A stretch of DNA of 64,000 nt from Escherichia phage vB_VIPECOOM03. Location: the sequence record OQ721911. One strand, given 5' to 3'. The notes beneath the pieces were generated by a model. The model saw only the letters and a program-made list of their open reading frames with translations, made no database searches and was not told the origin of the DNA. The position numbers were made by a program, and so were the translations under genes. Positions 16,708-26,879 of this stretch are shown in pieces; positions within the stretch are counted from its first letter, which is position 1; each line of letters starts with the position of its first letter.

Positions 16708-16768
16708 TTTGTGTTCCTCATGTTATGTAAGTAAAATTACTATAACACAACACGAGGGACTTGTAAAC
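16708..16768 (-). promoter_or_regulatory. Early promoter-like element with leader (GTTTACA -35, TATAGT -10, GAGGA SD)
   Basis: - strand reads GTTTACAAGTCCCTCGTGTTGTGTTATAGTAATTTTACTTACATAACATGAGGAACACAAAATG; about 55 bp are nearly identical to the element upstream of alc at 32478-32535. Confidence 0.6.
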
Positions 16769-18825
16769 TACATTTTGAACTTTTTAGACATTCCGTTGAT
16801 GTTAACCAAAGAAGCCAAGATTTGAGAAACTTCGTTTTCCTCTTCTTTTGATTCTTCTACAAGGAATTGATTAAATCCAGCCATTGGACGAACTTCACCA
16901 GTTTCCATCAGATGGTCGCCATCATATACCGATTCTTCTAATTGTTCAGAAGGAGGAACGATTGTGCCTTCGACTAGATACTTATTATAAGCAGTTTCTT
17001 TCATCATGTACGTACTCACTTTATTAATCTTCAGTAGAATTCCACGTGGTAGAATAATTTCAGCTTCTGATGGAAATCCTGATAAATGACCTGGAACGAT
17101 AACTTTGATTCGCTCAGCTCCTTTAATTACCATACCAACGCTAGTTTCAGCATCTTCATTCGCATAAGCAGAGCGACTGCCCATATGCATCAAATCTTCT
17201 GCGTCAACTGAACCTTCTCCTTCACCAGAAAATACTGCACCGGAATCATCTAGAGCCATATAGTTTTTACCATACTCACCGAAGATATTTGGTTTAAGCG
17301 ATGTGGATACGAAGTTCTTGAAATAAAACATTTTATTTTCAATATTATGGCGTAAAGTTTTGAAAGTAACTTCTTGTCCACGGTAAAGTGTAGTTCCTGG
17401 AGGAAGAACTGAACCTTTAGCAAAGGCAGAATCCATTGTCTCGATGTGTTTAATAGCTCGTTCCATATATTCTTCACGGGTAGAATCTGGTTTACCTAAA
17501 AGGAACGAGTTCATTTCAACATATGAATCTGCACAATAATCTTCAATTACATCAGATTCAGCTTGAGTCAGTCCTTTTGGAGTTACTTCGGTGCTTGCGT
17601 ATTCATATGCCTGGGCGGCAGATTCATTAATCAATTTATAAATGCCATTCATGACAAATTGAATAATAGCTACCTTTTCATCTGGCGTGGCTTTAGAACC
17701 TTTAACTAAATCATTAACAATTTTCTTAATAACATCAAAGCTGTTAGAAATATTAATATCAGAAAGATCACTTAAAATTTTATCAGTTTTATAATCAAAA
17801 AATTCTTTATTCTTTAAATATTCTTGAGAACCTTGATATGTTATATCGCTCTGTAATTTAATAGATGGATCACGTAAACGTGCATGAGCCAATGCAATAT
17901 GATTTCGGAAGCTTTCTAGTTCATAATCGTTAGATTTAAAACGAGAAGCGCTTCTCATACCACCTATAGCTCCTTTGCTGAAGTTTGAACCAATTTGAAT
18001 AACGCCAGAGTTCATTGATCCTTCTGCTTTATATACCGGAACTTTAGATTCAAACTCTTGATATTTCTTAGCAGCGAAGCTATCGCCCTGAAGTGAAGCA
18101 TCAACAGTAGAATATTGAGCTTGTGCTGCTAATCGACGACTAATTTTAGTTTTCTGAATAACAGCTTGATCCGTGCGCTTATCATTTTCTAAAGCAATAG
18201 AAGCAGCAACAGCAACAGCTTTAGGAACAGCATTACCCGTTTTAACGTCTACATAAACATCACCAACCTTTGATTCAACTTTTGTGAATAACTCAGTTGA
18301 AATAGGAGGTACACCTGGAATGTCTTCTAAATTGGCATTTTTACGGTAAACCATAATATATGCATACTTTTTATCGTAATCCCAGATTTCCTTTAAAAGA
18401 ACATATCGACCTGCTCCTTTAGTACGTACTAAACGGTCGGCAATAACTTGCATTTGACGAGCTGCGCCGTTTGTTTTACTCTTTAGTACGCGGAATAAGC
18501 ATGCATCAATTTTATACTGTTTCATTGTTTGAAGAGCAGTATCAAAAACCGCATTAATGACACCAATTGGGTTTCCACCCAAGTTTTTAAGTTTAACTAA
18601 TGATAGTTTTTCATTGACACCTATCATTACGATATGCATCATTTTATCGCCTGGCTTAACGTTTTTATTTGTATCACCACCAGAGGTGTATGTACAAAAT
18701 CTAAATCCAGGAAGCACACTTTCTTCACCGGCTTGAATAGCAAAAATTTGAGGTATTTTATGCTTAGGATTTAAGTTAACAACCGGCGCCGAAGCGCCGT
18801 CAAATAATTCTGTAATAAGTTCCAT
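16768..18825 (-). CDS. Alt-like ADP-ribosyltransferase paralog (685 aa)
   Basis: N-terminus MELITELFDGASAPVVNLNPKHKIPQIF parallels Alt; retains R (LYRGQ), STS (FVSTSL) and ExE (SEAEIILPRG) motifs and the shared C-terminal YDGDHLMETGE. Confidence 0.85.
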   Translation of the reverse strand: MELITELFDGASAPVVNLNPKHKIPQIFAIQAGEESVLPGFRFCTYTSGGDTNKNVKPGDKMMHIVMIGVNEKLSLVKLKNLGGNPIGVINAVFDTALQTMKQYKIDACLFRVLKSKTNGAARQMQVIADRLVRTKGAGRYVLLKEIWDYDKKYAYIMVYRKNANLEDIPGVPPISTELFTKVESKVGDVYVDVKTGNAVPKAVAVAASIALENDKRTDQAVIQKTKISRRLAAQAQYSTVDASLQGDSFAAKKYQEFESKVPVYKAEGSMNSGVIQIGSNFSKGAIGGMRSASRFKSNDYELESFRNHIALAHARLRDPSIKLQSDITYQGSQEYLKNKEFFDYKTDKILSDLSDINISNSFDVIKKIVNDLVKGSKATPDEKVAIIQFVMNGIYKLINESAAQAYEYASTEVTPKGLTQAESDVIEDYCADSYVEMNSFLLGKPDSTREEYMERAIKHIETMDSAFAKGSVLPPGTTLYRGQEVTFKTLRHNIENKMFYFKNFVSTSLKPNIFGEYGKNYMALDDSGAVFSGEGEGSVDAEDLMHMGSRSAYANEDAETSVGMVIKGAERIKVIVPGHLSGFPSEAEIILPRGILLKINKVSTYMMKETAYNKYLVEGTIVPPSEQLEESVYDGDHLMETGEVRPMAGFNQFLVEESKEEENEVSQILASLVNINGMSKKFKM

Positions 18826-18828
18826 GAT

Positions 18829-20922
18829 TTATCCTTGAACGAACTTGTAAGGCATGTTTGTAATATCTATGCAAGACGCAATAATTCCAAGAGATGATTC
18901 TGCTTTCTGTTTAACATTTGATGAAACAAATGATGCAAAGTCAACTCTGTCTTCTATTTCAATATCACCTGTCATTGCAACCAATTCACCAGTTTCCATT
19001 AAATGGTCTCCATCATAGATTACCGATTCGGTGAGTTCTTCCGTAGTCATAACTTCAGCTTGAATGAGTTTTGTATTATTAGATGTTGTTCCGTCATTAT
19101 TGGAAGCATCAGTTATTTTATTAACTTTGACCATCAATCCGCGTGGTAAAATAACTTCAGCTTCAGTTGCTATTCCGAGACTTCCTGGATATACAACATT
19201 AACTTTATGAGCTCCATCAATTGCCCATCCTATTTGAACTTTAACGTATTCAGGATTTTCTTTATACGCTCTTATTTCGTTTGGATTAATAGTTATTCCT
19301 TCTTCATTTTTATCAACTGTTAATTCATTGCGAGCTTCTGGTTCTAAAAGACCAATACCAGCATGCGTAATTCCAAAACGTCCAAAAATGATAGGAGTTA
19401 AAGAAGTAGATACAAAATTTCTGAAATAGAACACTTTATTTTTAACTAGTGCTTCGTATATAGGAGCAGTCATACTTTGAGCACGATAAACTGTAATGCC
19501 TTCTGGTATACGGTCACCATTTTCAAAGGCTGAATCTAAATTATTTATCGCAGATTCAATTTCTTTTTCACTCATTACATCATATCGTTCTGGATTATAG
19601 CGTCCTAAAAGAAGATTATTGATGTCAGTATATCCTGATCCACAATACTCTCTAATGCCGCGCTTTTGCGATGGAGTATATTTAGAACCATCACGGGCAA
19701 TAGTAATATCAATCATTGGACCTGCACCAATTCCAGAAAAGCTATAAATCATTCGTTTGAGGAATTTAGTTTTTGCTGCGTTCCAGGAATTTTTAGTTAT
19801 TTCTTCCCAGACTTCATCTGGCTGTCCTTTACGGGTTTTATTATGTTTATCAAGCCAAGTATCTTTATATTCTTCAAAGAATTTATTAATAGCTGCTGCA
19901 TACTTCTCTAAACATTTTATTGAAGTAGTTGGTTCATTTTTGATCGCGTTAAAAATTACATCTTTAATTTTTTCAGAAACTTCATTAACCTCACTTTTTG
20001 AAAAGAATTTATAGTCATAGTGAAGTTCATCTGCAGTCCCTTCGGCAATAATTTTTGCTGCCTTAGTTTTAGAAGCTAATGAATTAATTCCAAGTTTCAT
20101 TTCTTCCGCTTCGGGAATTAAAGGAGCTGTAGCAGGTTTATTGAAATTAGCTGCAGTAGATTCATACTTCTGGAATAATTCACTTTCAAATCTAGAAGAT
20201 TCCAATGACTGACTTTGTGCAATTGCTCTACGGGAAATTTTAACTTTAACTATTACAGCTTGGTCAGAACGTTTATCGTTTTCTTGCGCAATAGATGCTG
20301 CAATTGCCTCATTTTTAGTTACTTGAGCTCCAGTATCTTTATTGATATAAACATCGCCGACCTTCGATTCAACTTTAGTAAAGAGCTCGGTACTAATTTC
20401 TGGAACTCCTGGAATGTCTTCTAGTGATACATTTTTGCGATGTATAAGAATATATGCATACTTTTTATCGTAATCCCAGAGTTCCTTAAGAAGGACGTAT
20501 CTGCCACCTGAACGACTACGGATAAGTCTATCAGCAATAACTTGAATTTGTCGAGCTTGACCAGCAGTTTTAGACTTAAGAATACGGAGCATACAGGCAT
20601 CAATTTTATACTGACGCATCGTCTGCATTGCAACAGTAAAAACTGAATTGATATAATTAATTGGGCTTGGACCGAGACCTTTTAATTTAGCAATTGAACC
20701 TTTAGCAGTTAATGTAAAAGGAACAATATGCATCATTTTATCGCCCATTTTTAAATCGCGATTAGTATCACCTCCAGATGTATAGGTACATAAACGAAAG
20801 CCTGGTTGTTCAATTGCGTCATCAACATGAACTGAAAAAATTTGCGGTATTTTCTTCTTTGGATTTAAGTTTGTAATCGGAAGAGTAGTATCTTCGTCAA
20901 ATAATTCTGTAATGAGTTCCAT
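18829..20922 (-). CDS. alt: Alt ADP-ribosyltransferase (packaged internal protein)
   Basis: MELITELFDEDTTLPITNLNPKKKIPQIFSVHVDD matches T4 Alt; R (VYRAQ), STS (FVSTSL) and ExE (TEAEVILPRG) present; start placed at the second ATG with better SD spacing. Confidence 0.9.
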   Translation of the reverse strand: MELITELFDEDTTLPITNLNPKKKIPQIFSVHVDDAIEQPGFRLCTYTSGGDTNRDLKMGDKMMHIVPFTLTAKGSIAKLKGLGPSPINYINSVFTVAMQTMRQYKIDACMLRILKSKTAGQARQIQVIADRLIRSRSGGRYVLLKELWDYDKKYAYILIHRKNVSLEDIPGVPEISTELFTKVESKVGDVYINKDTGAQVTKNEAIAASIAQENDKRSDQAVIVKVKISRRAIAQSQSLESSRFESELFQKYESTAANFNKPATAPLIPEAEEMKLGINSLASKTKAAKIIAEGTADELHYDYKFFSKSEVNEVSEKIKDVIFNAIKNEPTTSIKCLEKYAAAINKFFEEYKDTWLDKHNKTRKGQPDEVWEEITKNSWNAAKTKFLKRMIYSFSGIGAGPMIDITIARDGSKYTPSQKRGIREYCGSGYTDINNLLLGRYNPERYDVMSEKEIESAINNLDSAFENGDRIPEGITVYRAQSMTAPIYEALVKNKVFYFRNFVSTSLTPIIFGRFGITHAGIGLLEPEARNELTVDKNEEGITINPNEIRAYKENPEYVKVQIGWAIDGAHKVNVVYPGSLGIATEAEVILPRGLMVKVNKITDASNNDGTTSNNTKLIQAEVMTTEELTESVIYDGDHLMETGELVAMTGDIEIEDRVDFASFVSSNVKQKAESSLGIIASCIDITNMPYKFVQG

Positions 20923-20945
20923 CATATCCTCTCTAGTGTTTATTC

Positions 20946-21163: not shown

Positions 21164-22620
21164 AGACCAGTTACCTCATGAAAATCACCAAATACATCCT
21201 CGAATGTATTAGCTTTAGTTTTATCTTCACGTAAACGAATCGCAATTGGAAGAAATAATTTAACGTAATCAGTGCGGCCATCAGATTTTAACCAACCATT
21301 GCATTCGCACTCTAGAATTTTTCCAATATAATAATTTTGGTTTTCCATAATGCGAGTACGGTCAAGTTCATGTGATTTTACACCGGCTTTATCTTTTAAG
21401 CCTGAACCTGCATTTACTTTAATTTTTCCACACTCTGATTCAAGAATAAATCCACCTGCTTTAGTAGGGTCTTTACGGTGAGGATAAATTCCTACAATTT
21501 TTAAATCAACATCAATTACTTCTTTAAATTTATAAAGATTTTTTGAACGAGCATTTTCCCACAATCCATCGGTATTTTTGAGAATAATACCTTCAAGACC
21601 TTGGTCAATATATTTTTTATAAATTACCTTAGCTTCATCTAGGTTATTTACTACCTGGTTTTCAATTAAAATTACTTTATCATATCCTGATGTCATTTGT
21701 TCTAGTTTAGAAAAACGTACATCATATTTTAAACGAAACGTCGGAAGACCGTATATTTCTACCAACGGAACATAATCCCAGACCTGAAACTTCATGCATT
21801 TGGCTTCTTTTTCTGAAATAGTTCCCTTTAAAGATTTATTGGCGATTCCATTAGAAGCAGTACGAGATTCAGCTACTTCGGCAAACTCTTTAGCTTTACT
21901 GATTTCAGGAGCGTCAAAAAGAAAATCTAGGCCTTCTGGTTCCTTTTCAACTTGCTCATGGTATACCAATTCGCCATCAATTAACACACCTTCTGGATGA
22001 ATCTGGCGGGCTTCAGCGGTCATTTTGATTAACTCTTCCTTAAGAAGATCTAATCCTAGATATTCATTACCAGCTCGTGATAAAAGACGAACATCATCTA
22101 ATTCATCACCTCGAACTTCAGCAAAACACCGAGCTCCATCTGCTTTTAACTGTGCAAAGGCTGGAAATTTGATATTCTTACTAATGCCTTTTTCATCATA
22201 AGAACTTGCCAGCATTTGAGGTTGTTCAGGAATTAAACCTGGCCAAACTTTGTTTGCAATAGATACTGAAGCACCGCATTCAAGGTCTCGCATCATAACT
22301 CGACGCAAAACTTCAACATCATCCTTTTTACCATCGGTGATATATCCAGTTAATTCCTCAATTGCTGCATTGCCAGTTAATTTCCGAGTAGCTAACGTGA
22401 ATTCAATGAAGTCAAGCATATCGGTAATAGTCAACATTCCAAAACTCTGGGTAGCAATACCAGGTTTAGGCCATTTCTTGATATAATACTGTAACCCACG
22501 AGAATAAGTCAGACGATATACTCGTTTAAGCAATTCATTATCTTTATTCTTTTCAAGAATTGCTTGCTTCTGCTTAGTTGATCCAATAGATGCTATTTCA
22601 TTCAGAATTTTAAGAATCAT
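21160..22620 (-). CDS. 30: ATP-dependent DNA ligase gp30
   Basis: 486 aa, MILKILNEIASIGSTKQKQAILEKNKDNELLKRVYRL; adenylation motif KADGAR; matches T4 DNA ligase. Confidence 0.95.
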   Translation of the reverse strand: MILKILNEIASIGSTKQKQAILEKNKDNELLKRVYRLTYSRGLQYYIKKWPKPGIATQSFGMLTITDMLDFIEFTLATRKLTGNAAIEELTGYITDGKKDDVEVLRRVMMRDLECGASVSIANKVWPGLIPEQPQMLASSYDEKGISKNIKFPAFAQLKADGARCFAEVRGDELDDVRLLSRAGNEYLGLDLLKEELIKMTAEARQIHPEGVLIDGELVYHEQVEKEPEGLDFLFDAPEISKAKEFAEVAESRTASNGIANKSLKGTISEKEAKCMKFQVWDYVPLVEIYGLPTFRLKYDVRFSKLEQMTSGYDKVILIENQVVNNLDEAKVIYKKYIDQGLEGIILKNTDGLWENARSKNLYKFKEVIDVDLKIVGIYPHRKDPTKAGGFILESECGKIKVNAGSGLKDKAGVKSHELDRTRIMENQNYYIGKILECECNGWLKSDGRTDYVKLFLPIAIRLREDKTKANTFEDVFGDFHEVTGL

Positions 22621-22886
22621 TGTTCATCCTTCAAAGTTTGATTTACATCTCTATTATAAATCAATTCATCATTAAGCTCAGGCAAAGACTTATGATATGT
22701 AGTTCTAACTTTATTTCCTTGCATCCAGTGCTTGACGTAAATGAAACCTTGCTCTACACATTTTTTAAAAATTCGTTCGTCTTTTTGAGCTCGGAATTCT
22801 GGATTGCATCTAAAAAATTGATTTACGTGACCGTAATCACGTGTAGTATTACCTTCATTTTCATAAATAGTATGAACAACAAACAT
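22617..22886 (-). CDS. Hypothetical protein
   Basis: 89-aa ORF overlapping the gene 30 start by 4 nt. Confidence 0.5.
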   Translation of the reverse strand: MFVVHTIYENEGNTTRDYGHVNQFFRCNPEFRAQKDERIFKKCVEQGFIYVKHWMQGNKVRTTYHKSLPELNDELIYNRDVNQTLKDEQ

Positions 22887-23725
22887 TAGAATGCTCCTTG
22901 AAAAATATTATCACCACTAGTAGGTCTATTATACAAATACTCTATGCCACCAGGTTTAATATAGTTCCATGTCTGAAACGGATGTGTCTGATATGGATGA
23001 TATAGATGATTATAAGGATTTAATCCAGGCGTTCTCCAGGTAGTGTTCCAAGGAAAAGAATCATTTTTAACCATCTTCTCAATTAAATCTTTTATAGCTT
23101 TTTCACTATCAAAACTTTCTTTATTTTCCTTCGGCGAAAAAAGCTTATTTTCTACATCATTCCATGTATAAACTCGCTGTGCAGTTTTTGGAATATTGTC
23201 ACGCTCTCCTCGAGCCATCCAATAAACTGGAACATTTAATATTTCACTCGCATGATCGCAGTGATGAGCGAGATCGTCAATATAACAAATTACGTTATAT
23301 TTCTCTTTTGCCTTTTTGAACAGCTCTTCTTTTGAAGAATCATGACCACACATCATTACTTCTGAGAAGGCACCAGGAAAAAGAGCATTCAAATTAAATT
23401 GACGATTCAACAGAGCGTCAATAGAATCACCCAATGCTGTAACAGCTACAAAATTATAATCTTCTTTTAATTTGTTAATTACACACAGGGCATCTTTATA
23501 CGGAGACAAGTAACGAATAAAATCTGAACGATTGTATTTTTCAATTAACTTGACGCCAAGTTCTTCGTCACAATTAAAGAGTTTACCTGGAGAAATAAAT
23601 TTCTCATCTTGGATCATTTTTAAAATATGTTCTAATGGAAGATTATATTTCTGAGCAAAATAAGGAAGGCCTGATTGCCAGCTTAAACATACTCCATCAA
23701 TATCAGTTAAAATAGTAGGCTTCAT
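22886..23725 (-). CDS. HAD-superfamily phosphatase-like protein (possible nucleotidase)
   Basis: 279 aa; N-terminal DIDGV (HAD motif I, DxDG[VT]) and a later IDD (motif IV-like). Confidence 0.6.
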   Translation of the reverse strand: MKPTILTDIDGVCLSWQSGLPYFAQKYNLPLEHILKMIQDEKFISPGKLFNCDEELGVKLIEKYNRSDFIRYLSPYKDALCVINKLKEDYNFVAVTALGDSIDALLNRQFNLNALFPGAFSEVMMCGHDSSKEELFKKAKEKYNVICYIDDLAHHCDHASEILNVPVYWMARGERDNIPKTAQRVYTWNDVENKLFSPKENKESFDSEKAIKDLIEKMVKNDSFPWNTTWRTPGLNPYNHLYHPYQTHPFQTWNYIKPGGIEYLYNRPTSGDNIFQGAF

Positions 23726-24186
23726 AGAGAGTCTCTTAATAGGTTTAACACATCAATAAATTCAGCTTCGGTTAGTATTGTATCATCTTTTGTTAGACCA
23801 CTAGCCATGCTGTGCTTCAAAACTTTTCCTTTCGAAGCTTGTAATGCATCACGAAAGCCCCTGTTTTGGATCGCTGCTTCAAAATATGCATTTGTGTATA
23901 ATTCTTTCCACGCTGGAGAGTATCTTGAAAATGGAACTCCAAGCCAGAACAACGTGCCACGGTCCTGAGCTCTAGCATAAGACCTTCCAGCTTGTTGCGC
24001 ATCCAATCCGGACATCCCAAATATACGTCTTTGCTGTTCAACATTTTTCACCTTACATCCTTGGAGGAATCCTTCGAGACCTCCAAATTGGATACCATCC
24101 ATAACGAAAGGCCATTGGGCGAAATTACTTAATGCACATGATGGCCATCTAAAATTGCTTCTTATCTCTAGCTCAGACATTTTCAA
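23722..24186 (-). CDS. NADAR (YbiA/DUF1768)-like domain protein
   Basis: 154 aa; SNFAQWPFVMDGIQFGGLEGFLQGCKV aligns by eye with the E. coli YbiA core (DFSNFAAWPIKVDGKTWPTSEHYFQAQKF). Confidence 0.55.
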   Translation of the reverse strand: MKMSELEIRSNFRWPSCALSNFAQWPFVMDGIQFGGLEGFLQGCKVKNVEQQRRIFGMSGLDAQQAGRSYARAQDRGTLFWLGVPFSRYSPAWKELYTNAYFEAAIQNRGFRDALQASKGKVLKHSMASGLTKDDTILTEAEFIDVLNLLRDSL

Positions 24187-24379
24187 TACTTATAATTTCA
24201 ACATCAGCCCAATGACCATAGCAAGGAAGACGAAATTCAACTGGCCAGTTAGGGTCCTTTTCTAATATAATAGACTTAACTTGTGGTTCTTCATGTTCAT
24301 CGGTATACGGACCTTTATACGTTACTTTATATGTGACCTTAATGTACTGAATTCCAAAAATCTTATTAATTATATTCAT
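24173..24379 (-). CDS. Hypothetical protein
   Basis: 68-aa ORF in an overlapping operon array. Confidence 0.45.
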   Translation of the reverse strand: MNIINKIFGIQYIKVTYKVTYKGPYTDEHEEPQVKSIILEKDPNWPVEFRLPCYGHWADVEIISIENV

Positions 24380-24573
24380 ACTAATTCCTTTAATCCATAG
24401 ATAGGAGATAATTCATCACCCATACGAAGGTCTTCATTTCCATCTACCCAGGAAACAATATAAGCCTCTTTTATTTGAATACCACTCCATTTAAATGGAG
24501 GTAGAACCTTAGAAATTAATCCAGGTATACCGACTCCCTTTAATTCAACAGTTTGACCCAAAAAGAATTTCAT
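24376..24573 (-). CDS. Hypothetical protein
   Basis: 65-aa ORF with ATGA overlap. Confidence 0.45.
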   Translation of the reverse strand: MKFFLGQTVELKGVGIPGLISKVLPPFKWSGIQIKEAYIVSWVDGNEDLRMGDELSPIYGLKELV

Positions 24574-24860
24574 TAGAACCTCATCTGAAAACCATGCGAT
24601 TTAACATTACCGCCGTCAATATCAGAAATGTTAATTTCACGCGCAATTGAAGGGTCAATGTCAATTTCACGATTGAGTTTAGCGATAGTTAGAGTATCGC
24701 GCCCATTTACAGTACGGAACTCTAAAGGGCAGACTACATTAACGTAGTTTTTAATCGATTCACTGGTAGGCTGCAAATGAGCAGGAAGGTCTTTAGGCGC
24801 CTTAGAGAAAACCACTTCACAGAAATTTTTGCGGGTATCAAAATAAGTAGTCATAAACAT
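24573..24860 (-). CDS. Hypothetical protein
   Basis: 95-aa ORF preceded by GAGGAAAATACTATG. Confidence 0.5.
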   Translation of the reverse strand: MFMTTYFDTRKNFCEVVFSKAPKDLPAHLQPTSESIKNYVNVVCPLEFRTVNGRDTLTIAKLNREIDIDPSIAREINISDIDGGNVKSHGFQMRF

Positions 24861-24877
24861 AGTATTTTCCTCAGTAA

Positions 24878-24891
24878 GGGGCCGAAGCCCC
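24878..24891 (-). terminator. Hairpin GGGGCUUCGGCCCC
   Basis: Perfect stem with UUCG loop between two - strand ORFs. Confidence 0.5.
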
Positions 24892-24900
24892 TATTTTATT

Positions 24901-25266
24901 TTAAATATCAAATTCGTTAAGAACTACATCAAAAATCGCTTCAAGATGCTCAGGTTTAGCTCTGTTACTCAGAATATGACGAATCCAAGTTTTAACCAGA
25001 AGCTTACGATTGACGCCATTCCAGCAAGGATGAGTCCCTAAATCACGTTGACGGAAATCATCATCTAATGCGATTTTAAAAGAAGAACCTTCTTTCGTGA
25101 TTGAAACTGTGATGCCATTTTCAAATCGCATATAAACGTAGTTAGGAGTCATATACTGTTCAATTTCGCATACTGATCCATTTTGATGTTTCCAAAGGCA
25201 AATAGTATCATTAGAACCTGCAATACCGTTAGAAACATATTTACGTTCAAAGTTGATGTAGTTCAT
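24901..25266 (-). CDS. Hypothetical protein
   Basis: ATG at 25266 preceded by GGAGAATAAA; the ORF-track start at 25278 is a TTG. Confidence 0.5.
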   Translation of the reverse strand: MNYINFERKYVSNGIAGSNDTICLWKHQNGSVCEIEQYMTPNYVYMRFENGITVSITKEGSSFKIALDDDFRQRDLGTHPCWNGVNRKLLVKTWIRHILSNRAKPEHLEAIFDVVLNEFDI

Positions 25267-25278
25267 TTTATTCTCCAA

Positions 25279-25331
25279 GATGTTTAATTGTGGTACAGGT
25301 ATATAATATCATATCCTGTACCAAAGTAAAC
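25279..25331 (-). promoter_or_regulatory. Early promoter-like element (GTTTAC -35, TATTAT -10) with inverted repeat around -10
   Basis: GTTTACTTTGGTACAGGATATGATATTATATACCTGTACCA; TGGTACAGG and CCTGTACCA flank the -10. Confidence 0.5.
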
Positions 25332-25333
25332 AA

Positions 25334-25666
25334 TTATTTTACTACTTTCCAGTGCTGCATGTCAAGTTTACCAACTTTTTTCATCTTCTCAATTAAGCGT
25401 TCTGCACGTTGGCGAGCTGTAACATAATACCATTCGCCTAATTCATTTTGTTCAATTTTTCCAACGATTACTGTATTCAATTCATAAATCCAACCAGTAA
25501 AGAAATTATGAACTTGAATTGTAAAGGTGAAATCTGTTCCCATACCTTCTGTTGTTTCTACTTCAATAATATCACCTTCAACTGCCATTAAGAACCACAT
25601 AGTTTCATCATATTTACCATTGAAGCATTTAGTTTTAACTGTAGCGTTCAGATTAATCGTTTTCAT
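25334..25666 (-). CDS. Hypothetical protein
   Basis: 110-aa ORF preceded by AAGGAGAATAAAATG. Confidence 0.5.
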   Translation of the reverse strand: MKTINLNATVKTKCFNGKYDETMWFLMAVEGDIIEVETTEGMGTDFTFTIQVHNFFTGWIYELNTVIVGKIEQNELGEWYYVTARQRAERLIEKMKKVGKLDMQHWKVVK

Positions 25667-25680
25667 TTTATTCTCCTTTG

Positions 25681-25745
25681 CTTGTGTAAGATAATACTAT
25701 CACAAAGGAACTATACTGTAAACAACTTTGTGCAATCTTTGGAAA
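25681..25745 (-). promoter_or_regulatory. Early promoter-like element (GTTTACA, 17-bp spacer, TAGTAT)
   Basis: TTGCACAAAGTTGTTTACAGTATAGTTCCTTTGTGATAGTATTATC upstream of ORF 25334-25666. Confidence 0.5.
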
Positions 25746-25753
25746 ATAAAAAA

Positions 25754-25771
25754 GGACTCCCGAAGGAGTCC
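25754..25771 (-). terminator. Hairpin GGACUCC-UUCG-GGAGUCC plus U-run
   Basis: Perfect 7-bp stem followed by UUUUUUAUUUU on the - strand. Confidence 0.6.
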
Positions 25772-25776
25772 TCAAC

Positions 25777-25953
25777 TTATGCTTTCTGCTTACCAAAACG
25801 AGAAGCATCATCTCGAAGAACCGCACGTGCTCGGCGCATGATCTTCTCAACAGTTTGATTGATACGAGAGTTCGACCCACGCTTGTAACCAGCGCGTTTA
25901 GAATCACCAACTTTCTTTTCAACTGCTTTCTTTGCTTTAGCTTGTTTTGCCAT
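25777..25953 (-). CDS. Small lysine/arginine-rich hypothetical protein
   Basis: 58 aa MAKQAKAKKAVEKKVGDSKRAGYKRG... from the internal ATG; an upstream in-frame ATG at 25995 would give 72 aa; neither start has a strong SD. Confidence 0.4.
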   Translation of the reverse strand: MAKQAKAKKAVEKKVGDSKRAGYKRGSNSRINQTVEKIMRRARAVLRDDASRFGKQKA

Positions 25954-26147
25954 TATAAATTCTCTTTTAAATGAAAATGCAGGACTTATTGGCATTGCCT
26001 GCGCAAGCCCTCAAGGGGAACATAGGTTTTGAGTATTTACCGACAGGATAACCATAAACCTCGTCAACATTCAAGAGGTACACCGTAAAACAAAGTTCGA
26101 CGGCTCCTCGATTTTAGCTCACACTAAGGCAGTGAATCTCCAATAAA

Positions 26148-26396
26148 TTACTTCAGTGTTACCACAAAGTGACGAACTGCTTTTCGTGCAGCAGAAGCCA
26201 GAGGCTTAGCATACTTAAGTTCATCTTTTTCCTGGAGCTCAGCAGCTAATGCAGTTTGAGCAGGATTCAGATGTTTGAAATAACGCAGGATTTCAAGGGC
26301 TTCGGCTTCAACATCAATAGATGCGCCATAGTTTTCGTGACCATTATTCCATGCGTTTCGTTGCAGTTCAAGAGCGTGTTGTAATTGTTTAATCAT
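26148..26396 (-). CDS. rIII: rIII lysis-inhibition accessory protein
   Basis: 82 aa, MIKQLQHALELQRNAWNNGHENYGASIDVEAEALEILRYF matches T4 RIII as recalled. Confidence 0.85.
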   Translation of the reverse strand: MIKQLQHALELQRNAWNNGHENYGASIDVEAEALEILRYFKHLNPAQTALAAELQEKDELKYAKPLASAARKAVRHFVVTLK

Positions 26397-26535
26397 TTAA
26401 AAATTCTCGTTAGAGATTAAAACTCGGTAGTCACGTTCTTCTGAATTTCATCTTCTTTCGACAGATCTCTCAGTTGTAGACTACCACGTAGAATTGTTCG
26501 GTTAACTTATTATTCCGACACCCAATTCATATTAT

Positions 26536-26543
26536 TATTTATA
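26536..26543 (-). promoter_or_regulatory. Late promoter TATAAATA at the head of a long rIII leader
   Basis: TATAAATA on the - strand immediately after the gene 31 stop, about 140 nt upstream of rIII. Confidence 0.5.
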
Positions 26544-26879
26544 TCACTTATAAAGACACGGAATAGCTTTATAGTGACAGGTAACGAATTTTTGTTTAAT
26601 TTCTTTTGGCTGCTTAAGACCTAGAGCTACAAAAGGATGCGGAACGTTTCGAATTTGACCAACTGGAAGAGAAGTCAAATCACCAACTTCGCAGAAACCT
26701 TCAGGAACATCAGGACCAACAGAGTGAACTACACACAGTTCAGGAACTTCACCTTGAACACGTTTACCGATAATGAGTCCTGATTCTGTAACTTCTTCAT
26801 CACCAGCTTGCGCAGGTTCAGAAACTAAAATAACATATTCACCGACAGCACGAATTGGTAGCTGTTGTACTTCAGACAT
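26544..26879 (-). CDS. 31: Co-chaperonin gp31 (GroES analogue)
   Basis: 111 aa, [62 protein letters not shown] matches T4 gp31. Confidence 0.93.

What the first reader, a model, noticed from the sequence alone, without database searches (positions are those of the whole stretch)
23722..24186. NADAR (YbiA/DUF1768)-like ORF in the gene 30 - rIII early block
The 154-aa product contains SNFAQWPFVMDGIQFGGLEGFLQGCKV, which lines up by eye with the NADAR core of E. coli YbiA (DFSNFAAWPIKVDGKTWPTSEHYFQAQKF), and a more loosely similar C-terminal half. NADAR enzymes are N-glycosidases; members have been reported to remove ADP-ribose from guanine in DNA, the lesion made by DarT toxins. A phage copy could therefore be a counter-defence against DarTG-type systems, or a nucleotide-salvage enzyme. 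It sits next to a HAD-like phosphatase ORF (22886-23725) and a few kb from the two Alt ARTs, so ADP-ribose chemistry recurs in this region. The domain call rests on motif recognition only.
Basis: partly seen in the sequence, partly recalled or inferred. Interest (0 to 1): 0.6.

Follow-up and report, generated by a model that had tools for sequence, protein, structure and literature searches.

The report
Known phage anti-DarTG1 enzyme AdfN
This ORF is the T4 gene 30.3 (adfN), an already characterised phage enzyme that strips ADP-ribose off guanine in DNA to defeat the bacterial DarTG1 defence.

Summary
The window comes from a T4-type phage (Tequatrovirus), and the flagged ORF is real. It lies on the minus strand at 23722..24180, starts with ATG and encodes 152 aa. 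The product matches T4 gp30.3 at 148 of 152 residues.

On its own the protein hits only Pfam Phage_30_3 (E 7.5e-70), not the NADAR model. Other evidence still places it in the NADAR superfamily:
- 19 of 40 aligned family members also hit Pfam NADAR.
- Catalytic E36 and K43, the phage-clade His123 and the C-terminal helix are all intact.

Published work has already renamed gp30.3 as AdfN. It is a guanine-specific DNA ADP-ribosylglycohydrolase that T4 and T2 need, and that suffices, to overcome DarTG1 (Johannesman 2025; Cihlova 2024; Schuller 2023).

The neighbouring gene 30.2 is a HAD-fold enzyme resembling a deoxyribonucleotidase, and its link to 30.3 is not conserved in more distant phages.

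The parts
23722..24180 (-). adfN (T4 gene 30.3) coding sequence, 152 aa plus stop. It is a stand-alone NADAR-domain DNA ADP-ribosylglycohydrolase.
24181..24186 (-). They are probably not translated as part of the protein.
   Evidence: The T4 annotation starts at the ATG. The published numbering of E36 and K43 fits only the ATG start.
24052..24129 (-). N-terminal NADAR core motif, SNFAQWPFVMDGIQFGGLEGFLQGCK (residues 18-43). It contains catalytic Glu36 (24073..24075) and Lys43 (24052..24054).
   Evidence: S18, N19, F20, E36, G37 and Q40 are invariant and K43 is nearly invariant in 40 homologues at 33-88% identity. The motif aligns to YbiA S30-K55. E36A and K43A impair the T4 protein.
23812..23814 (-). 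His123 codon. This is the phage-clade replacement of the Glu that is conserved in YbiA-type NADARs (E125 in PnNADAR).
   Evidence: H123 is invariant in alignments A1 and A2. The substitution is described in Schuller 2023 and Johannesman 2025. That H123 is the substituted position is my inference; it was not checked by structural superposition.
23728..23769 (-). C-terminal alpha-helix (residues 138-151), needed for full activity. It is the part lost in the frameshifted, DarTG1-sensitive RB69 allele.
   Evidence: Helix H138-151 in the model. The sequence is identical to T4 here and has no frameshift.

Best explanation
The ORF is the adfN gene (T4 gene 30.3) of a T4-type phage. It encodes a 152-aa single-domain NADAR enzyme. 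When the host DarT1 toxin ADP-ribosylates guanine bases in the replicating phage DNA, AdfN cleaves the N-glycosidic bond between ADP-ribose and guanine. This restores unmodified DNA, so replication continues and the phage can form plaques on hosts that carry DarTG1. It acts catalytically, using Glu36 and Lys43, and does not bind the toxin. It does not reverse thymine ADP-ribosylation by DarT2.

Shown here: orthology to T4 gp30.3, the NADAR fold, intact catalytic residues and an intact C-terminus.

Taken from published experiments on the 97%-identical T4 protein: the enzymatic activity, its guanine specificity, and its necessity and sufficiency against DarTG1.

Inferred: that this phage's allele, which carries four non-catalytic substitutions, behaves in the same way.
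For: - Identity and synteny: 148/152 residues identical to T4 gp30.3 with no gaps. The gene order 30 / 30.1 / 30.2 / 30.3 / 30.4 ... rIII / 31 is the same as in T4. The region is 100% identical to Escherichia phage vB_VIPECOOM01.
- Sequence link: the family profile's best PDB match is YbiA at E 0.0023. 19 of 40 family members hit Pfam NADAR PF08719, best 2.8e-7, and several database homologues carry both PF08010 and PF08719.
- Residues: E36 and H123 are invariant and K43 nearly so.
- Published experiments: T4 and T2 lacking adfN cannot plaque on DarTG1 hosts. Ectopic adfN rescues RB69. E36A and K43A impair rescue. The purified protein removes ADP-ribose from DNA. No binding to DarT1 was detected (PMC11825919). 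gp30.3 hydrolyses guanosine-ADPr but not thymidine-ADPr in vitro (PMC11125620). Transposon insertions in 30.3 are lost on DarTG1 hosts (bioRxiv 10.1101/2025.11.20.689424).
Against: The protein alone gives no hit to Pfam NADAR at E<=1, none in NCBIfam or PADLOC, and no significant sequence match to any solved structure. This particular allele differs from T4 at four positions (L56M, A60D, K107R, I125M) and has not been assayed. The published T4 protein does not protect uninfected cells from DarT1 and only weakly rescues phages outside the T-even group, so part of the mechanism, an unknown T-even factor, is unresolved.
Confidence: 0.93

Rival explanations
1. It is a YbiA-type housekeeping N-glycosidase or nucleotide-salvage enzyme, for example one that hydrolyses riboflavin-pathway intermediates or recycles ADP-ribose or NAD-derived metabolites for the phage.
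For: YbiA is the best sequence and Foldseek match among solved structures. In Aeromonas phage Asswx_1 the homologue lies a few kb from annotated PRPP synthetase and nicotinamide phosphoribosyltransferase genes. The neighbour 30.2 resembles a deoxyribonucleotidase.
Against: Phage NADARs carry His in place of the Glu that defines the YbiA subfamily. The published phylogeny places them nearest the DarT1-associated NADARs. The deletion phenotype is specific to DarTG1 hosts, and the gene is dispensable on E. coli K-12.
Confidence: 0.03
2. It reverses or tunes ADP-ribosylation made by the phage's own transferases (the two Alt paralogues, ModA and ModB), as the reader's remark about recurring ADP-ribose chemistry would suggest.
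For: Two Alt-type ART genes lie 3-7 kb away on the same strand.
Against: The tested NADARs, T4 gp30.3 among them, act on guanine-linked ADP-ribose in DNA and not on thymine-linked. From general knowledge rather than anything tested here, Alt modifies arginine in proteins. The gene order is simply the conserved T4 order. Several distant phages carry the homologue in quite different gene neighbourhoods, although alt was not searched for there.
Confidence: 0.03
3. In this particular phage the allele is inactive or weakened, a decayed copy like the one in RB69.
For: Four substitutions relative to T4. Truncated and fused fragments of the family exist in databases.
Against: The reading frame is full length with the C-terminal helix intact, all invariant residues are present, and the model is confident throughout. 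The substitutions fall at positions that vary across the family.
Confidence: 0.03

Closest known systems
AdfN of phage T4 (gp30.3; Johannesman et al. 2025, PMC11825919)
   Same: It is the orthologue. The two share 97% identity over the full 152 aa, the same position between 30.4 and 30.2, the same E36/K43/H123 residues and an intact C-terminal helix.
   Different: There are four conservative or surface-type substitutions (L56M, A60D, K107R, I125M). This allele itself has not been assayed.
DarG1, the NADAR antitoxin of DarTG1 (e.g. G. lovleyi NADAR, PDB 8bat)
   Different: There is no adjacent DarT toxin gene. It lacks the N-terminal extension (152 aa against 219 aa). It has His where DarT1-linked NADARs have Asp and YbiA types have Glu. 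The T4 protein cannot act as an antitoxin in uninfected cells.
E. coli YbiA (PDB 2b3w), Pfam NADAR PF08719
   Different: Identity is about 18-21%. The window protein does not reach the PF08719 model on its own. The subfamily-defining Glu is replaced by His. YbiA is a housekeeping protein and gives no protection against DarT1.
AdfN-Bas32 and AdfN-Bas60 (NADARs of T5-like and Vequintavirinae phages)
   Same: They are phage-encoded stand-alone NADARs that counter DarTG1 and are specific for guanine.
   Different: They belong to other NADAR clades that were acquired independently. Unlike the T4-type protein, they work without a T-even infection background.

Membership tests
NADAR superfamily | Direct match of the protein to the curated NADAR profile (Pfam PF08719) | tested here: not met
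   hmmscan at E<=1 returns only PF08010 Phage_30_3 (7.5e-70) and a noise hit. NCBIfam and PADLOC return nothing.
NADAR superfamily | Family-level (transitive) sequence homology to NADAR proteins | tested here: met
   19 of 40 aligned homologues hit PF08719, best 2.8e-7. Database homologues carry both PF08010 and PF08719. The family profile's top PDB match is YbiA at E 0.0023, with the core motif aligned.
NADAR superfamily | NADAR three-dimensional fold | tested here: met
NADAR superfamily | Conserved catalytic Glu and Lys of the N-terminal motif (PnNADAR E43 region; T4 E36 and K43) | tested here: met
   E36 is invariant and K43 nearly invariant. They align to the Glu and Lys of YbiA's SEHYFQAQK. 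The mutational evidence is published.
NADAR superfamily | Hydrolysis of guanine-linked ADP-ribose on DNA | not testable with these tools
   Shown in vitro for the 97%-identical T4 protein. Inferred for this allele.
AdfN (T4 gp30.3 orthologous group, Pfam PF08010) | Full-length orthology and conserved position between 30.4 and 30.2 in the 30 to rIII early block | tested here: met
   148/152 identity. PF08010 covers 138 of 138 profile positions. The flanking genes are 94-98% identical to T4's 30, 30.1, 30.2 and 30.4.
AdfN (T4 gp30.3 orthologous group, Pfam PF08010) | Phage-clade His in place of the YbiA-type Glu, and an intact C-terminal helix (no RB69-type frameshift) | tested here: met
   H123 is invariant. 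Helix 138-151 is present and identical to T4.
AdfN (T4 gp30.3 orthologous group, Pfam PF08010) | Confers resistance to DarTG1 during infection | not testable with these tools
   Published for T4 and T2. Not assayed for this phage.
DarTG1 toxin-antitoxin module (DarG1 antitoxin) | NADAR gene paired with an adjacent DarT1 ADP-ribosyltransferase toxin gene | tested here: not met
   The neighbours are 30.4 (68 aa, no Pfam hit) and the HAD protein 30.2. No DarT is present.
YbiA-type housekeeping NADAR | Conserved Glu at the PnNADAR E125-equivalent position | tested here: not met
   The family has an invariant His123. The literature states that phage NADARs replace this Glu with His. The positional equivalence is taken from the literature and was not superposed here.

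The most novel reading that the evidence does not exclude
Published work shows that T4 AdfN is fully active only during T-even infection, so an unidentified phage factor is suspected. The most novel reading my evidence does not exclude is that this factor is the translationally coupled downstream neighbour gp30.2. gp30.2 is a HAD-fold enzyme resembling a 5'(3')-deoxyribonucleotidase, with a disordered Pro/Tyr/Asn-rich tail. It could localise or potentiate AdfN, or process the released ADP-ribose or damaged nucleotide.

In favour: the stop codon of 30.3 overlaps the start of 30.2 (ATGA). The pair stays adjacent in an Acinetobacter phage and close together in RB16.

Against: no 30.2 homologue lies within 5 kb of the 30.3 homologue in the Klebsiella, Vibrio, Aeromonas or Rhizobium phages examined. 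In addition, the text of the T4 transposon screen on DarTG1 names only adfN.
Probability: 0.05. Interest if true: 0.5.

Novelty: already known. Interest (0 to 1): 0.1.

Why it matters
The result confirms that reading raw sequence by eye recovered a genuine, remote homology that the single-sequence Pfam scan against the NADAR model missed. It also means this phage can be predicted to resist DarTG1-type defence, which is useful for predicting its host range. It adds no new biology. The gene, its fold, its enzymatic activity and its counter-defence role were published between 2023 and 2025. The one open question it touches is which T-even factor potentiates AdfN.

Tried and rejected
- Single-sequence searches gave no NADAR link. 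Pfam at E<=1 found only Phage_30_3. NCBIfam found nothing and PADLOC found nothing. phmmer against PDB sequences returned only noise. PHROGs gave a family of unknown function.
- The promoter and terminator scan of 22500..26600 was uninformative: 19 promoter-like sites against 15.6 expected.
- I tested whether the HAD neighbour 30.2 is a conserved partner of 30.3. It is adjacent or near in T4, Acinetobacter phage fHyAci03 and RB16. It is absent within 5 kb in four more distant phages. I therefore rejected it as an obligatory module and kept it only as a low-probability candidate cofactor.
- I considered the internal out-of-frame ORF 30.3' as a possible overlapping gene. Its product is only about 76% identical to T4's, while the 30.3 frame is 97% identical, and no comparable ORF exists in five of the six distant homologues. 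It is probably not a conserved protein.
- I rejected a functional link to the Alt genes, because the gene order is simply that of T4.

Full report
**1. What is in the sequence.** The interval 23722..24186 holds an open reading frame on the minus strand. From the TTG at 24186 it reads 154 aa. Two codons downstream there is an ATG at 24180, and this is the start used in the phage T4 annotation of the orthologous gene, which is 459 nt or 152 aa. The published residue numbering (E36, K43) fits only the ATG start. I therefore place the gene at 23722..24180 (-). The start overlaps the end of the upstream gene 30.4 (24173..24379) by 8 nt. Its TGA stop overlaps the ATG of the downstream gene 30.2 (22886..23725) in an ATGA arrangement.

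**2. Where the window comes from.** The 2.7 kb around the ORF is 100% identical to Escherichia phage vB_VIPECOOM01/02 and 90-98% identical to hundreds of Tequatrovirus genomes. The gene order matches T4 exactly: alt, alt.1, 30 (DNA ligase), 30.1, 30.2, 30.3, 30.4 ... 30.9, rIII, 31. The product matches T4 gp30.3 at 148 of 152 residues with no gaps. The differences are L56M, A60D, K107R and I125M. The flanking products 30, 30.1, 30.2 and 30.4 are 94-98% identical to T4's.

**3. Testing the NADAR call.** Taken alone, the protein does not hit the NADAR profile.
- Pfam gives Phage_30_3 (PF08010, E 7.5e-70, covering the full model) and nothing for PF08719 even at E<=1.
- NCBIfam and PADLOC give nothing.
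- PHROGs gives a family of unknown function.
- phmmer against PDB sequences gives only noise.

Family-level evidence reverses that.
- A profile search from nine homologues found 6061 proteins. Several of them carry precomputed hits to both PF08010 and PF08719, and some are named 'YbiA (DUF1768 family)' by their source.
- In a 40-sequence alignment at 33-88% identity to the query, 19 members individually hit Pfam NADAR, best E 2.8e-7.
- The profile of that alignment has E. coli YbiA (2b3w) as its best match among all solved-structure sequences, at E 0.0023.

**5. Functional residues.** E36 and H123 are invariant and K43 is nearly invariant across the family, and all are present in the window protein. 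The C-terminal helix (residues 138-151 in the model) is intact and identical to T4's. This matters because the RB69 allele, which a 1-nt insertion truncates 15 residues early, is the non-functional one. The literature describes His123 as the phage-clade replacement of the Glu (PnNADAR E125) that defines YbiA-type NADARs, a position occupied by Asp in DarT1-linked NADARs. I did not superpose the structures to confirm the positional equivalence.

**6. What is already known.**
- Schuller et al. 2023 (PMC11543638) showed that NADARs hydrolyse guanine-linked ADP-ribose and act as the DarG1 antitoxins. They also noted the His variant in phage NADARs.
- Cihlova et al. 2024 (PMC11125620) named T4 gp30.3 a NADAR. 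They showed that it hydrolyses guanosine-ADPr but not thymidine-ADPr in vitro, and that it does not rescue cells from DarT1.
- Johannesman et al. 2025 (PMC11825919) mapped DarTG1 resistance in T2 x RB69 and T4 x RB69 chimeric phages to the 3' part of 30.3 and renamed the gene adfN. Deleting adfN sensitises T4 and T2 to DarTG1, and ectopic adfN rescues RB69. E36A, K43A and the C-terminal truncation reduce activity. The purified protein removes ADP-ribose from DNA. No binding to DarT1 was seen, and there is no effect on DarTG2.
- A 2025 transposon-sequencing preprint found insertions in 30.3/adfN lost specifically on DarTG1 hosts.

**7. Mechanism.** AdfN is expressed from the 30 to rIII block of genes. 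It acts as an orphan enzyme resembling a type IV antitoxin. DarT1 ADP-ribosylates guanine in phage DNA and blocks replication, and AdfN hydrolyses the ADP-ribose-guanine bond to restore the DNA.
- Shown here: orthology, fold, and intact catalytic and structural elements.
- Taken from publications on the 97%-identical T4 protein: activity, specificity and phenotype.
- Inferred: that this allele behaves the same way.
- Unresolved in the field: why T4-type AdfN works fully only during T-even infection.

**8. Surroundings.** The neighbour 30.2 (22886..23725, -) has no Pfam hit. Its family nevertheless shows the residues I take to be the four HAD motifs: invariant D8, D10 and K132, and nearly invariant T96, D150 and D151. 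A few members hit the NT5C and HAD Pfam models. The AF2 model is confident for residues 1-200 and disordered for residues 224-279. Foldseek gives 124 PDB hits at E<=0.001; the 50 listed are all HAD-type hydrolases, and among them the 5'(3')-deoxyribonucleotidases align with the lowest rmsd.

A 30.2 homologue lies next to the 30.3 homologue in Acinetobacter phage fHyAci03 and close by in RB16. None is found within 5 kb in Klebsiella phage Roth20, Vibrio phage PC-Liy1, Aeromonas phage Asswx_1 or Rhizobium phage RL2RES. The pairing is therefore lineage synteny rather than a conserved module. Both match PF03496 and they are 41% identical to each other. Nothing links them functionally to AdfN.

**9. 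Verdict.** The novelty class is 'already known'. Interest is low (0.1). The residual novel angle is that gp30.2 might be the missing potentiating factor, which I rate at about 5%.

Noticed in passing
window 22886..23725 (-): Gene 30.2, annotated 'hypothetical' in T4, is a HAD-superfamily hydrolase. D8, D10 and K132 are invariant and T96, D150 and D151 nearly so. The best low-rmsd structural matches are 5'(3')-deoxyribonucleotidases. It has a ~55-residue disordered Pro/Tyr/Asn/Trp-rich C-terminal tail (pLDDT below 50 from residue 239). Its start overlaps the adfN stop (ATGA).
   Followed up: yes
window 16768..18825 (-) and 18829..20925 (-): There are two tandem Alt-type ADP-ribosyltransferase paralogues of 685 and 698 aa, 41% identical to each other, and both hit PF03496. 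The part of T4 that I fetched shows one alt gene, cut at the locus edge. I did not check whether T4 or its close relatives carry the second copy.
   Followed up: partly
window 23817..24044 (-): This is the internal out-of-frame ORF that T4 annotates as 30.3' (75 aa). Its translation is only about 76% identical between this phage and T4, while the overlapping 30.3 frame is 97% identical. Five of the six distant homologues have no comparable ORF. It looks like a by-product of the adfN frame rather than a conserved protein.
   Followed up: partly
L003 5001..5450 (Klebsiella phage Roth20, PQ657793): The gp30.3/AdfN homologue (41% identity) is annotated 'anti-CBASS protein acb1', which appears to be a mis-annotation. 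In this phage the gene sits inside a tRNA gene cluster, with no 30.2 or ligase gene nearby.
   Followed up: no
L006 5001..9536 (Aeromonas phage Asswx_1, MH791398): The AdfN homologue lies 0.4-3 kb upstream of genes annotated as PRPP synthetase and nicotinamide phosphoribosyltransferase, which are NAD salvage genes. This could hint at a broader NAD/ADP-ribose context in some lineages.
   Followed up: no
proteins P0131, P0132, P0103, P0142; P0149, P0211 and others: Some family representatives of about 290 aa match the query in two stretches, which suggests a tandem double NADAR. Others are fusions of 350-540 aa with the NADAR domain at either end. Their partner domains were not examined.
   Followed up: no
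literature (PMC11125620, Methods 4.2): The T4 gp30.3 construct is listed as 'residues 1-208', which does not match the 152-aa annotated protein. This may be a typo, or the figure may include tag or vector residues.
   Followed up: no
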